Shown here: piece by piece, positions 1-1,205 of the stretch | Layout of the letters: every line of letters begins with the position of its first letter | How positions within the stretch are numbered: position 1 is the first letter of the stretch | Assembly: GCA_000004985.1 (NCBI GenBank) | Contig: GG739499.1 | Source of the DNA: Naegleria gruberi | Taxonomy: Eukaryota | Length of the DNA stretch: 1,205 nucleotides | Direction: 5' to 3' (one strand) | Position numbers and translations under genes: made by a program | Notes under the pieces: generated by a model | Told to the model about the DNA's origin: nothing | Database searches by the model: none | What the model saw: the letters and a program-made list of their open reading frames with translations, nothing else

Positions 1-127
1 AAATAAAATGTTCATCATATTCATTATTAATGATGGAATGAAGTGAGCAGGAACGAATTTTGGAATAATCATTGTTTCGGATACATTCAACAGCTTCTTC
101 CCATTTCTTCTTATCGGTTGATGCCAT
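1..127 (-). CDS. Partial CDS, N-terminal 42 codons, running off the left edge of the window. It encodes a hypothetical protein beginning MASTDKKKWEEAVECIRNNDYSKIRSCSLHSIINNEYDEHFI and continuing beyond position 1.
   Basis: Reverse-complementing 1..127 by hand puts an ATG at 127..125. It is the first in-frame ATG after a TGA five codons upstream and is immediately preceded by an A7 tract. The frame then stays open for 42 codons to the window edge. G at first codon positions is about 26%, similar to the neighbouring Sel1 gene at about 30%, and the amino-acid mix (K/N/E/D/I/Y) is typical of AT-rich proteomes. The six-frame track omits it because there is no stop inside the window. No Shine-Dalgarno motif lies upstream. 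Confidence 0.42.
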   Translation of the reverse strand, partial: MASTDKKKWEEAVECIRNNDYSKIRSCSLHSIINNEYDEHFI

Positions 128-311
128 TTTTTTTGTTTGTAGTCATTACAAAAATAGTTTATACACGTTTCGAATAATATCAATCAACAAAGGCACAGCT
201 CAGATGGAGAATCTGCGAAAAAGGATCCTAAAAAGCAACATTCAAGAAAGAAACACTCTGAGATTAAAGATGGAAAGTTTATTGAGTAGAAAATTGTCTT
301 CATTGATTTAG
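72..311 (+). CDS. 79-aa hypothetical ORF from the track, probably spurious or antisense.
   Basis: The frame is open for 80 codons including the stop, TAG at 309..311. Only about 13% of first codon positions are G. It uses CG-containing codons (cgg, tcg, acg, cga) that are rare elsewhere in this window, and the protein is S/L/F/R-rich, which is what antisense or non-coding AT-rich sequence tends to give. Positions 72..127 overlap the more coding-like minus-strand start antisense. If it were real, it would be convergent with the Sel1 gene, with the 16-bp palindrome between the two stops. Confidence 0.15.
   Translation: MFRIHSTASSHFFLSVDAIFFVCSHYKNSLYTFRIISINKGTAQMENLRKRILKSNIQERNTLRLKMESLLSRKLSSLI
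158..187 (-). promoter_or_regulatory. Candidate promoter for the minus-strand gene that starts at 127. On the minus strand it reads TTGATT (187..182), an 18-nt spacer, then TATAAA (163..158). The same TATAAA could equally be a eukaryotic-style TATA box.
   Basis: Read directly from the minus strand: cTTTGTTGATTgatattattcgaaacgtgTATAAAc. Against the sigma70 consensus the -35 element matches 4 of 6 and the -10 element 5 of 6, with an acceptable 18-nt spacer. The TATAAA sits 31-36 nt upstream of the ATG. A TAnnTTTG-like motif (TATTTTTG, 156..149) follows. In roughly 70% AT DNA such matches are common by chance. Confidence 0.2.
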
Positions 312-322
312 TGGAATAATGA

Positions 323-338
323 TAAGTTGCTCTTTCAA
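323..338. repeat. Perfect 16-bp palindrome tttcaaatatttgaaa, function unknown. It could be a protein-binding site or a weak AT-only hairpin 3' of the Sel1 gene.
   Basis: All eight base pairs 323-338, 324-337 through 330-331 were checked and are complementary, while 322/339 is not. The palindrome lies 28 nt downstream of the Sel1 stop at 367 and 11 nt after the plus-ORF stop at 311. The stem has a single G:C pair and the minus strand has no T-run after it, so it is not a convincing intrinsic terminator. Confidence 0.55.
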
Positions 339-366
339 ATATTTGAAACTTTGTTTACAGTTTGTT

Positions 367-861
367 TCAATTAATGAAATTTTGGGCTGCAGAGCTTCCA
401 TTCTCAGCAGCTTTTATGATCCATTCCATTGCTTTGCAATAATCATGTTGAACTCCTTTTCCAATAAGGTATAACCATCCAATTTGAAATTGAGCGCATG
501 AATGACCATGTTCAGCAGCTTTTAGAAACCATTCCATTGCTTTTTTGTAATCTTGTTTGACTCCTTGTCCATTTTGATATAAAAATCCAATTTCAAATTG
601 AGAAATTGAATGACCATTGTTAGTAGATATTAAAAAATACTCCATTGCCTTGGAATAATCTTGTTTAACTCCTTGTCCATATCCATATAAACATCCAATG
701 TTGTGATATGATGCTGAATGACCATTTTCAGCAGCTTTTAGAAACCATTCCATTGCTTTGGAATAATCTTTTGTAGCTCCTTGTCCATTTTGATATAAAC
801 ATCCAATTTCAAATTGAGAAATTGAATGACCATTTTCAGCAGCTTTTAAATACCAATCCAT
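367..861 (-). CDS. Sel1-like repeat (SLR/TPR-family) protein, 164 aa, made of 4.5 tandem 36-aa repeats and ending in a TGA stop at 369..367. It is probably the intact 3' portion of a longer SLR gene, because the annotated Met is the repeat-consensus Met.
   Basis: The translation shows four full repeats plus a 20-aa partial repeat, with the M-(D/E)-W-(F/Y)-L-K-A-A-E-N-G-H-S at the start of each unit and I-G-x-L-Y-x-N-G-Q-G-V-K-Q-D-Y-x-K-A at its end. The conserved A/G/Y/W positions give a strong match to the Sel1 repeat consensus (A..W..KAAeqG...Aq..LG.mY..G.GV..D...A). Minus-strand repeat boundaries fall at Met 861, 753, 645, 537 and 429. The antisense strand is full of stops. Upstream of 861 the same repeat continues, but out of frame. 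Confidence 0.8.
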   Translation of the reverse strand: MDWYLKAAENGHSISQFEIGCLYQNGQGATKDYSKAMEWFLKAAENGHSASYHNIGCLYGYGQGVKQDYSKAMEYFLISTNNGHSISQFEIGFLYQNGQGVKQDYKKAMEWFLKAAEHGHSCAQFQIGWLYLIGKGVQHDYCKAMEWIIKAAENGSSAAQNFIN

Positions 862-1205
862 TGCTTTGGAATAATCCTGTTGAACTCCTTTTCCATGCTT
901 GTATAACCATCCAATTTGAAATTGCGATGCTGACCTGAATGACCATTTTCAGCAGCTTTTAAATACCATTCCATTGCTTTTTTATAATCTTGTTTGACTC
1001 CTTGTCCATTTTGATATAAAAATCCAATTTGTAATTGAGAAATTGAATGACCATTGTCTAGTAGCTATTAAAAACTATTCCATTGCCTTGGAATAATCTT
1101 GTTTAACTCCTTGTCCATATCCATATAAACATCCAATGTTGTGATATGATGCTGAATGACCATTTTCAGCAGCTTTTAGAAACCATTCCATTGCTTTGGA
1201 ATAAT
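862..1205 (-). pseudogene. Upstream continuation of the Sel1-repeat array, about three more 36-aa units reaching past the window edge. It is disrupted by one nonsense codon and two frameshifts, so it is either a pseudogenised 5' portion or an assembly artefact.
   Basis: Repeat Met codons fall at 1191..1189, 1083..1081 and 974..972, and the repeat nearest the edge translates cleanly to SKAMEWFLKAAENGHSASYHNIGCLYGYGQGVKQDYSKAME. The lesions, judged against the intact paralogous repeats, are as follows. An in-frame TAG sits at 1077..1075, where the homologous repeat has GAG-TAT and this one has GAA-TAG. There is a 1-nt insertion (c) near 1058. There is a 5-nt insertion near 926-935 (gatgctgaCCTGAatgacc), which looks like a local duplication or gene conversion. 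Confidence 0.5.

What the first reader, a model, noticed from the sequence alone, without database searches (positions are those of the whole stretch)
862..1205. The upstream copy of the block carries three independent disabling lesions, so the 164-aa ORF is a remnant of a longer SLR gene
The start codon of the ORF at 861 is just the consensus Met of the repeat (AME-W). Immediately upstream the same repeat continues, but with a TAT-to-TAG nonsense change at 1077..1075, a +1 insertion at about 1058 and a +5 insertion at about 930. The frame is restored and clean again in the unit nearest the edge (1191..1084), so the ancestral gene very likely began beyond 1205. Three lesions in about 270 bp of otherwise 96%-identical sequence suggests one of two things. 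Either the duplicated block is decaying quickly, as happens in reductive genomes of host-restricted bacteria, or repeat-induced assembly errors have crept in. One lesion is a base substitution and the 5-nt insertion is not in a homopolymer, so both argue against simple indel-type sequencing noise.
Basis: seen in the sequence. Interest (0 to 1): 0.6.

Follow-up and report, generated by a model that had tools for sequence, protein, structure and literature searches.

The report
Broken upstream copy in Sel1-repeat array
The three gene-breaking changes upstream of the 164-aa ORF are really in the sequence, but they are the ordinary decay expected in a diverged copy of a repeat gene. The gene's closest relative is in the amoeba Naegleria, not in a bacterium, and the stretch sits exactly where the assembly could not resolve the repeat.

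Summary
All three lesions exist on the minus strand: a TAG at 1077..1075, an extra G at 1058 and an extra GGTCA at 935..931. The ATG at 861 is the repeat's own conserved Met.

The array has 7.4 Sel1-like units of 108 nt, arranged as a four-unit (432-nt) higher-order repeat: A'-B'-C'-D-A-B-C-tail. The two blocks are 93.8% identical, not 96%, and the identity is uneven. There are 0 differences in the first 127 nt, then 21 substitutions and two indels in 211 nt. At about 10% divergence, one nonsense change and two indels are what neutral decay predicts, so no "fast decay" is needed.

The perfect run is exactly 127 nt from the window edge, which is the largest k used by SPAdes-type assemblers. The window is therefore probably a whole short contig starting at an unresolved repeat. 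The "clean" edge unit is not independent evidence, and where the broken block sits is uncertain.

The closest protein is a Naegleria gruberi predicted protein (67-74% identity). Its own C-terminus reads like a frameshifted Sel1 unit. Bacteria reach at most 53%. The reductive-bacterium idea is not supported.

This is an ordinary pseudogenised repeat segment, or a mis-join. Interest is low.

The parts
1079..1205 (-). Perfect 127-nt copy of 767..641, covering the end of a D-type unit and most of unit A'. It runs from the very edge of the window. It is probably the k=127 overlap of a de Bruijn contig, or else a recently homogenised stretch.
   Evidence: the exact run from the edge is 127 nt, and the next longest exact repeat in the window is 46 nt. 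One search shows the alignment.
1087..1194 (-). Unit A' (AMEWFLKAAENGHSASYHNIGCLYGYGQGVKQDYSK). It is identical to unit A at 756..649.
   Evidence: 108/108.
978..1086 (-). Unit B' (109 nt). It is the counterpart of unit B (102/108) and carries the nonsense codon TAG at 1077..1075 and the +1 insertion (G at 1058).
865..977 (-). Unit C' (113 nt). It carries the +5 insertion GGTCA at 935..931. With the insertion removed it reads AMEWYLKAAENGHSASQFQIGWLYKHGKGVQQDYSK. That is only 93/108 identical to unit C, and closer to the Naegleria protein than unit C is.
757..864 (-). Unit D. It contains the ATG at 861..859, the conserved Met of KAMDW, which starts the 164-aa ORF.
367..861 (-). Intact 164-aa ORF with a TGA stop. 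It consists of a lone second helix, four complete Sel1-like repeats (D, A, B, C) and a short C-terminal helix.
   Evidence: ORF. (Pfam Sel1, 147.7 bits against a cut-off of 30.7, 4 repeats). (PDB 8sxq, E = 5.9e-87). (AlphaFold pLDDT 97.7, 10 helices).
128..366 (-). A 239-nt spacer after the ORF stop. It has no terminator-like hairpin and no RNA family match.
2..127 (-). Possible start of the next gene (MASTDKKKWEEAVECIRNNDYSK...), cut off by the window edge. The context before the ATG is A-rich and has no Shine-Dalgarno-like motif. No homologue was found.

Best explanation
The window is the 3' end of a tandem array of 36-aa Sel1-like repeats, which are helix-pair modules that build a protein-binding solenoid. 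The array is a four-unit, 432-nt higher-order repeat in the order A'-B'-C'-D-A-B-C-tail. It most probably comes from a Naegleria-like eukaryote.

The distal copy is a genuinely degenerate, pseudogenised stretch. Unit B' has a nonsense codon and a +1 insertion, and unit C' has a 5-nt insertion. As assembled, only the last 4.6 repeats remain open, starting at the repeat's own conserved Met, so the 164-aa ORF is a remnant and not an independently evolved gene.

The lesion load is what neutral drift gives at the observed divergence of about 10%. No accelerated decay is involved.

The perfect 127 nt at the edge is either a recently homogenised stretch (gene conversion or unequal exchange) or, more likely, the assembler's k-mer overlap at an unresolved repeat. 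In the second case the contig simply stops there.

Shown: the lesions, the unit architecture, Sel1 family membership, the mid-repeat start and the closest relative. Inferred: that the lesions are real in the DNA, that the broken block truly lies directly upstream of the ORF, and the eukaryotic origin.
For: - Lesions and their coordinates.
- Higher-order repeat with graded identity (108/108, 102/108, 93/108).
- 21 substitutions in 211 nt, spread 8:5:8 over codon positions; of 15 differing codons, 3 are synonymous, 11 nonsynonymous and 1 nonsense. This pattern fits relaxed constraint.
- The repaired upstream block is a good Sel1 array (151.8 bits).
- The ORF starts with an unpaired second helix.
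- No sigma-70-like promoter on the minus strand upstream of 861. Promoter-like sites are at chance level (8 against 6.3 +/- 2.1).
- Several upstream ATGs (1191, 1163, 1054, 974, 946) precede 861 on the same strand.
- The closest homologue, N. gruberi EFC41815, ends ...GCLYQAWKRS. That is exactly the +1-shifted reading of LYKHGKGVK, as seen in this window's own shifted frame, with AGT TAA giving the stop. The same kind of lesion therefore occurs in the nearest relative.
- The exact 127-nt run points to a k-mer-based short-read assembly. In such an assembly every 127-mer must be present in reads, so the assembler is unlikely to have invented a +1 and a +5 insertion.
Against: - No reads, no assembly graph and no orthologous locus could be examined, so neither the reality nor the placement of the lesions is directly verified.
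- The ORF itself is flawless, with four canonical repeats and pLDDT 97.7, so it could still be expressed and functional.
- The broken block is joined to the ORF through a perfect repeat at least 127 nt long, so the join could be an assembler's choice.
- The origin is inferred from a single close homologue. The window itself was not found in any collection.
Confidence: 0.55

Rival explanations
1. Repeat mis-join or unresolved loop. The lesion-bearing segment 1078..768 is real DNA, but it belongs to a paralogous dead copy, or to a tandem block of unknown copy number. In that case the real gene upstream of the ORF may be intact. The contig is one path through a de Bruijn graph that passes the same 127-mer node twice.
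For: - The perfect identity runs exactly 127 nt from the window edge. 127 is the largest k of SPAdes-type assemblers. If the edge had been cut at an arbitrary point, the chance of exactly 127 would be below about 1 in 100.
- No other exact repeat in the window exceeds 46 nt.
- The odd window length of 1205 suggests a whole short contig.
- Identity drops abruptly from 100% to about 90% right after the run.
Against: - In a k=127 graph the segment 1078..768 leaves the shared node and re-enters it. Any genome containing that segment must therefore have it flanked by the shared sequence on both sides, which a true tandem arrangement satisfies most simply.
- The k=127 reading is itself an inference. 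The assembler is not known.
Confidence: 0.25
2. Base-level sequencing or polishing errors in a repeat. On this view the true sequence is an uninterrupted longer ORF.
For: - All three lesions fall within about 150 nt of a tandem repeat, where read placement and polishing are least reliable.
- The lesions sit in units that otherwise keep the Sel1 consensus.
Against: - One lesion is a substitution, and neither insertion lies in a homopolymer.
- The surrounding 211 nt carry 21 further substitutions. The segment is therefore a truly distinct sequence and not a miscopied duplicate.
- If the assembly is k-mer based, as the 127-nt run suggests, the indels must be present in reads. Illumina indel errors are far too rare to give two in 130 nt (established knowledge).
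Confidence: 0.05
3. The 164-aa ORF is an independently expressed short Sel1-like protein, and the upstream units are a dead duplicate that plays no part in it.
For: - The ORF has 164 open codons, four canonical repeats and a very confident solenoid model.
- Short Sel1-like proteins of 130-290 aa are common among the homologues.
Against: - It starts in the middle of a repeat with an unpaired helix and no N-terminal cap or targeting sequence.
- No promoter-like site lies upstream on its strand.
- Five upstream ATGs on the same strand would pre-empt it under eukaryotic scanning (established knowledge of scanning initiation).
- Its start codon is present in every unit of the array.
Confidence: 0.1
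4. One reading: a rapidly decaying duplicated gene in the reductive genome of a host-restricted bacterium.
For: - The window is AT-rich, at about 32% GC.
- Sel1-like repeat genes are abundant in amoeba-associated bacteria. A Parachlamydiaceae MAG reaches 51%, Coxiellaceae and Dependentiae MAGs also match, and a Legionella plasmid gives a weak DNA match.
Against: - The best bacterial or archaeal match is 53%, against 67-74% for Naegleria gruberi.
- There is no Shine-Dalgarno-like motif before either ATG, and no intrinsic terminator after the ORF.
- The lesion load does not exceed the neutral expectation.
Confidence: 0.1
5. Translational recoding (stop read-through plus two programmed frameshifts), or splicing, that restores a long protein.
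For: - +1 and +5 add up to 6, so the outer frames coincide.
- Twelve formal GT-AG single introns of 200-320 nt would give an open frame from 1191 to 367.
Against: - Recoding would need three separate events within 150 nt, and there is no slippery heptamer at either indel (sequence).
- None of the 12 intron solutions keeps the 36-aa repeat register. Each would also make an intron out of repeat-coding sequence.
Confidence: 0.01

Closest known systems
Naegleria gruberi predicted protein EFC41815.1 / XP_002674559.1 (NAEGRDRAFT_70287), 131 aa
   Same: It is the closest sequence found: 67% identical to the ORF and 74% to the repaired upstream block. It shares the distinctive unit variants GHSASQFQIGWLYKHGKGV and GHSASYHNIGCLY. 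Its C-terminus, LYQAWKRS, is the frameshifted reading of a Sel1 unit, so it too appears to be cut short by a frameshift inside the array (inference).
   Different: It has a basic, non-repeat N-terminus (MKRKRETPKTPTKQ...) that this window lacks. Its unit order differs. At 26-33% divergence it is not the same locus. Its DNA could not be retrieved.
Bacterial Sel1-like repeat proteins with solved structures: LceB of Legionella pneumophila (8sxq), EsiB of E. coli CFT073 (4bwr), HcpC of Helicobacter pylori (1ouv)
   Same: They share the 36-aa helix-pair repeat and its consensus (A..W..KAA..G...A...LG..Y..G.GV..D). E-values run from 5.9e-87 to 5.9e-27. The predicted fold is the same solenoid of helix pairs.
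   Different: Those are complete proteins with their own N-termini. This ORF starts mid-repeat behind broken units. Identity to bacterial relatives is at most 53%.
Eukaryotic SEL1L / Hrd3 family (8kes, 5b26)
   Same: The same repeat type (E = 1e-52).
   Different: SEL1L is a large ER membrane adaptor with other domains. Nothing in this window indicates that architecture.
Degenerate or pseudogenised units in tandem-repeat genes that evolve by unequal exchange and gene conversion
   Same: A higher-order repeat with a perfectly homogenised stretch next to a diverged stretch carrying a stop and indels.
   Different: There is no population or orthologue data here to show the exchange events themselves.

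Membership tests
Sel1-like repeat (SLR) proteins, Pfam PF08238 | The whole-protein score exceeds Pfam's curated cut-off, with several tandem repeats of about 36 aa. | tested here: met
   The ORF scores 147.7 bits against a cut-off of 30.7, with 4 repeats. The repaired upstream block scores 151.8 bits, with 5 stretches.
Sel1-like repeat (SLR) proteins, Pfam PF08238 | A solenoid of antiparallel helix pairs. | tested here: met
   AlphaFold mean pLDDT 97.7, pTM 0.90, 10 helices in a regular A/B pattern; strong sequence matches to solved SLR structures.
Sel1-like repeat (SLR) proteins, Pfam PF08238 | A complete protein with its own N-terminus (a cap, signal peptide or other domain). | tested here: not met
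   The ORF begins with the lone second helix of a unit. The matching first helix lies upstream of the ATG, in the frameshifted unit C'.
Pseudogenised gene segment | An in-frame stop and/or frameshifts relative to an intact paralogous copy. | tested here: met
   TAG at 1077..1075, +1 at 1058 and +5 at 935..931, relative to units B and C.
Pseudogenised gene segment | A substitution pattern consistent with relaxed constraint. | tested here: inconclusive
   the 21 substitutions fall 8:5:8 over codon positions, and 11 of the 15 differing codons are nonsynonymous. However, many of these hit positions that vary between repeat units anyway, and the sample is small.
Pseudogenised gene segment | The lesions are present in the underlying reads and the segment is correctly placed. 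| not testable with these tools
   No reads or assembly graph are available. The 127-nt edge repeat makes the placement uncertain.
Pseudogenised gene segment | An intact orthologue exists in relatives. | tested here: inconclusive
   No orthologue was found. The nearest homologue is 67-74% identical and itself appears truncated.
Gene decay in a reductive genome of a host-restricted bacterium | The sequence is of bacterial origin. | tested here: not met
   The closest relative is Naegleria gruberi. The best of 185,579 bacterial and archaeal species representatives reaches 53%. There is no Shine-Dalgarno motif and no intrinsic terminator. The origin is still not proven.
Gene decay in a reductive genome of a host-restricted bacterium | An excess of disabling lesions relative to divergence. 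| tested here: not met
   three lesions accompany 21 substitutions in 211 nt. That is within the neutral expectation (inference from general nonsense and indel fractions).
Programmed recoding (frameshift or read-through) | A slippery site at the shift, and a single event that yields a conserved product. | tested here: not met
   There is no X XXY YYZ-type site at 1058 or 935..931. Three events would be needed.

The most novel reading that the evidence does not exclude
The contig might belong to an amoeba-associated bacterium and not to the amoeba. A Sel1-repeat gene 67-74% identical to a Naegleria gruberi gene would then be a recent inter-domain transfer, caught while decaying.

A related possibility concerns the broken 438-nt (146-codon) block, which is flanked by direct repeats at least 127 nt long. 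That arrangement could act as a recombinational on/off cassette: excision between the repeats would remove all three lesions in frame and re-fuse the upstream array to the ORF.
Probability: 0.07. Interest if true: 0.45.

Novelty: new member of a known kind. Interest (0 to 1): 0.1.

Why it matters
It matters little beyond annotation. The locus should be flagged as a disrupted Sel1-like repeat gene, and not annotated as a 164-aa protein. The contig start should be treated as an unresolved repeat.

The useful general lesson is methodological. A perfect repeat of exactly k bases at a contig edge means the "clean" terminal unit is the same graph node as the internal one. It cannot be used as evidence that an intact gene continues upstream.

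If the source turned out to be bacterial, the high identity to a Naegleria gene would be of some interest for host-to-symbiont transfer of eukaryote-like repeat proteins.

Tried and rejected
- Exact look-up of the 164-aa product, and of the Naegleria protein, in the contig index: neither is on record.
- An exact 26-37-nt pattern from the unique spacer, searched in the viral, bacterial/archaeal and metagenome collections: no match. The source could not be retrieved and the window could not be extended past 1205.
- The 42-aa start of the downstream ORF: no homologue and no Pfam family.
- Protein-guided scans. Viral gave one hit at 37%. Metagenomes reached at most 56%, with DNA identity at most about 74%. 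Bacterial and archaeal genomes reached at most 53%. None is an orthologue, so the "uninterrupted orthologue" test could not be done.
- The exhaustive representative search was swamped by very long multi-repeat proteins (228,520 hits) and gave no closer relative.
- Cluster look-ups of the best unnamed hits returned no names.
- The literature search for Naegleria plus Sel1 found nothing on this family.
- Plasmids gave only distant Sel1 genes, at most 66% identical over half the window. Phages gave no match.
- Rfam gave no match.
- Intron rescue: 12 formal GT-AG solutions exist, but none keeps the repeat register. Rejected.
- Recoding: rejected, because there are no slippery sites and three events would be needed.
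- Independent bacterial promoter or terminator: none beyond chance.

Full report
**Observation.**
The window has about 32% GC throughout. On the minus strand, Tandem Repeats Finder reports 7.4 copies of a 108-nt unit across 1205..398. The motif GCAATGGA, which encodes the "AM(E/D)" of the repeat, starts a unit at 1194, 1086, 977, 864, 756, 648, 540 and 432. The spacings are 108, 109, 113 and then 108 four times. The only long ORF is 861..367 on the minus strand: 164 aa, ending in TGA. A local alignment of 1205..862 against the downstream sequence places it on 767..430.

- GAA TAG against GAG TAT, with the TAG at 1077..1075.
- One extra G at 1058.
- Five extra bases, GGTCA, at 935..931.

The two insertions add up to six bases. 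As a result, the short ORF 1191..1075 and the ORF 861..367 are in the same frame. The ATG at 861 is the conserved Met that every unit has.

**Corrections to the observation.**
Outside the indels the two blocks are 317/338 = 93.8% identical, not 96%, and the identity is very uneven. There is no difference in the first 127 nt, then 21 substitutions in the next 211 nt. By unit, A'=A is 108/108, B'~B is 102/108 and C'~C is only 93/108, barely more than C' against D at 91/108.

The array is best described as a four-unit (432-nt) higher-order repeat, A'-B'-C'-D-A-B-C-tail. With the GGTCA removed, unit C' reads ...GHSASQFQIGWLYKHGKGVQQDYSK. That is closer to the family consensus and to the nearest homologue than unit C of the intact ORF, which carries two Cys and an LI replacement.

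**What the sequence encodes.**
The ORF is a clear Sel1-like repeat protein. Pfam Sel1 scores 147.7 bits against a cut-off of 30.7, with four repeats. It has strong matches to solved SLR proteins: 8sxq LceB, 4bwr EsiB, SEL1L and 1ouv HcpC. The AlphaFold model has mean pLDDT 97.7 and ten helices in the regular pair pattern.

The first helix of the model (residues 2-9) is the second helix of a unit. Its partner helix is encoded upstream of the ATG, in the frameshifted unit C'. The ORF therefore starts in the middle of a repeat. The upstream block, with the three lesions repaired, scores 151.8 bits against the same model.

**Is the decay fast?**
No. The 211 nt that hold the lesions differ from their counterpart at 21 positions, spread 8:5:8 over the three codon positions. 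Of the 15 differing codons, 3 are synonymous, 11 nonsynonymous and 1 nonsense. With that many substitutions, about one nonsense change and one or two indels are what unconstrained change is expected to produce. This is an inference from the general fraction of nonsense substitutions and general indel-to-substitution ratios. The lesion load is ordinary for the divergence.

**The edge of the window.**
The perfect identity starts at base 1205 and lasts exactly 127 nt. The next longest exact repeat anywhere in the window is 46 nt. 127 is the largest k-mer used by SPAdes-type assemblers (my own knowledge). A contig that begins at a repeat node of a k=127 graph begins with exactly 127 bases that recur inside it. 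Together with the odd length of 1205 bases, this makes it likely that the window is a whole short contig whose path passes the same node twice: 1205..1079, the segment 1078..768, the node again at 767..641, then 640..1.

Three things follow:
1. The "clean" unit at the edge is the same graph node as unit A of the ORF. It is not independent evidence for an intact upstream gene.
2. The placement and copy number of the broken segment are the uncertain part. The ORF's first 31 codons lie in that segment too.
3. In a k-mer assembly every 127-mer must be present in reads. The +1 and +5 insertions are therefore unlikely to be assembler inventions, and short-read indel errors are far too rare to give two within 130 nt.

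I therefore rate "real lesions, ordinary pseudogenised block" highest (0.55) and "real DNA but mis-joined or unresolved loop" second (0.25). Base-level error rates low (0.05). The k=127 reading is an inference that I could not verify.

**Origin.**
The window itself could not be found. The exact product is not on record, and exact patterns from the unique spacer are absent from the viral, bacterial/archaeal and metagenome collections.

The only close protein is the Naegleria gruberi predicted protein EFC41815 / XP_002674559. It is 67% identical to the ORF and 74% to the repaired upstream block, and it shares the unusual unit variants GHSASQFQIGWLYKHGKGV and GHSASYHNIGCLY. Everything else reaches at most 57%. 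Named hits near 50% are Mortierellomycota fungi. Metagenome loci reach at most 56%. The one viral hit is at 37%. Representatives of 185,579 bacterial and archaeal species reach at most 53%. Plasmids give only distant Sel1 genes, and phages give nothing.

Within the window:
- Neither ATG is preceded by a Shine-Dalgarno-like motif. The downstream one sits in CAAAAAAAATGG.
- No intrinsic terminator follows the ORF.
- Promoter-like sites are at chance level, and none lies on the minus strand upstream of 861.

A Naegleria-like eukaryotic origin is the best guess, at moderate confidence.

**A parallel in the nearest relative.**
The Naegleria protein ends ...GHSASYHNIGCLYQAWKRS. QAWKRS is exactly what this window's own +1 frame gives for the unit segment YKHGKGV. 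With the usual continuation GGA GTT AAA, the shifted frame reads AGT TAA, a stop directly after RS. That gene model is therefore very probably cut short by a frameshift inside a Sel1 unit as well. This is an inference, because its DNA could not be retrieved. It suggests that frameshifted units are a feature of this small family and not a peculiarity of this contig.

**Alternatives considered.**
- An independently expressed 164-aa protein is possible, but it would start with an unpaired helix. It has no promoter-like site, and on a eukaryotic mRNA it would sit behind five upstream ATGs.
- Splicing could formally bridge the lesions. Twelve GT-AG solutions of 200-320 nt exist, but none keeps the 36-aa register.
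- Recoding would need three events and has no slippery sites.
- No RNA family matches the window.

**Verdict.**
The phenomenon, however, is an ordinary degenerate block in a tandem-repeat gene, at a point where the assembly is unresolved. It offers no support for fast decay or for a reductive bacterial genome. Reads, the assembly graph and a spanning PCR or long read would settle it. Interest is low (0.1). It is a new member of a known kind.

Noticed in passing
window 1205..1079 and 767..641: The perfect repeat runs exactly 127 nt from the window edge. That matches the largest k of SPAdes-type assemblers, and the window (1205 nt) is probably a whole contig that starts at an unresolved repeat node.
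   Followed up: partly
P0009 (N. gruberi EFC41815), C-terminus: The nearest homologue ends LYQAWKRS. That is the +1-shifted reading of the Sel1 segment LYKHGKGVK, with a stop at AGT TAA. Its gene model appears to be truncated by a frameshift inside the repeat array.
   Followed up: partly
window 1058 and 935..931; spacing of 438 nt between the two blocks: The two insertions add up to 6 nt, so the block period is 438 nt, or 146 codons. Recombination between the perfect direct repeats would remove all three lesions and stay in frame.
   Followed up: no
window 977..865 versus 540..433: Apart from its 5-nt insertion, the broken unit C' is closer to the family consensus and to the Naegleria protein than unit C of the intact ORF. 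Unit C has unusual Cys, Leu-Ile and His replacements.
   Followed up: partly
   Followed up: no
window 127..2, minus strand: A possible start of a second gene (MASTDKKKWEEAVECIRNNDYSKIRSCSLHSIINNEYDEHFI), cut off by the window end. It sits in an A-rich context with no Shine-Dalgarno motif. No homologue and no Pfam match were found.
   Followed up: partly
window 828..800, minus strand: The only terminator-like hairpin lies inside the coding repeat (the FEIG region of unit D). One such site against 0.4 +/- 0.7 in shuffles is most likely chance.
   Followed up: no
L015 (Ga0256407_10250160), about 170..780: The closest DNA-level relative found is a very AT-rich (23% GC) 1.5-kb metagenome contig, 71-74% identical over 270-600 nt of the repeat array. 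Its origin is unknown.
   Followed up: no
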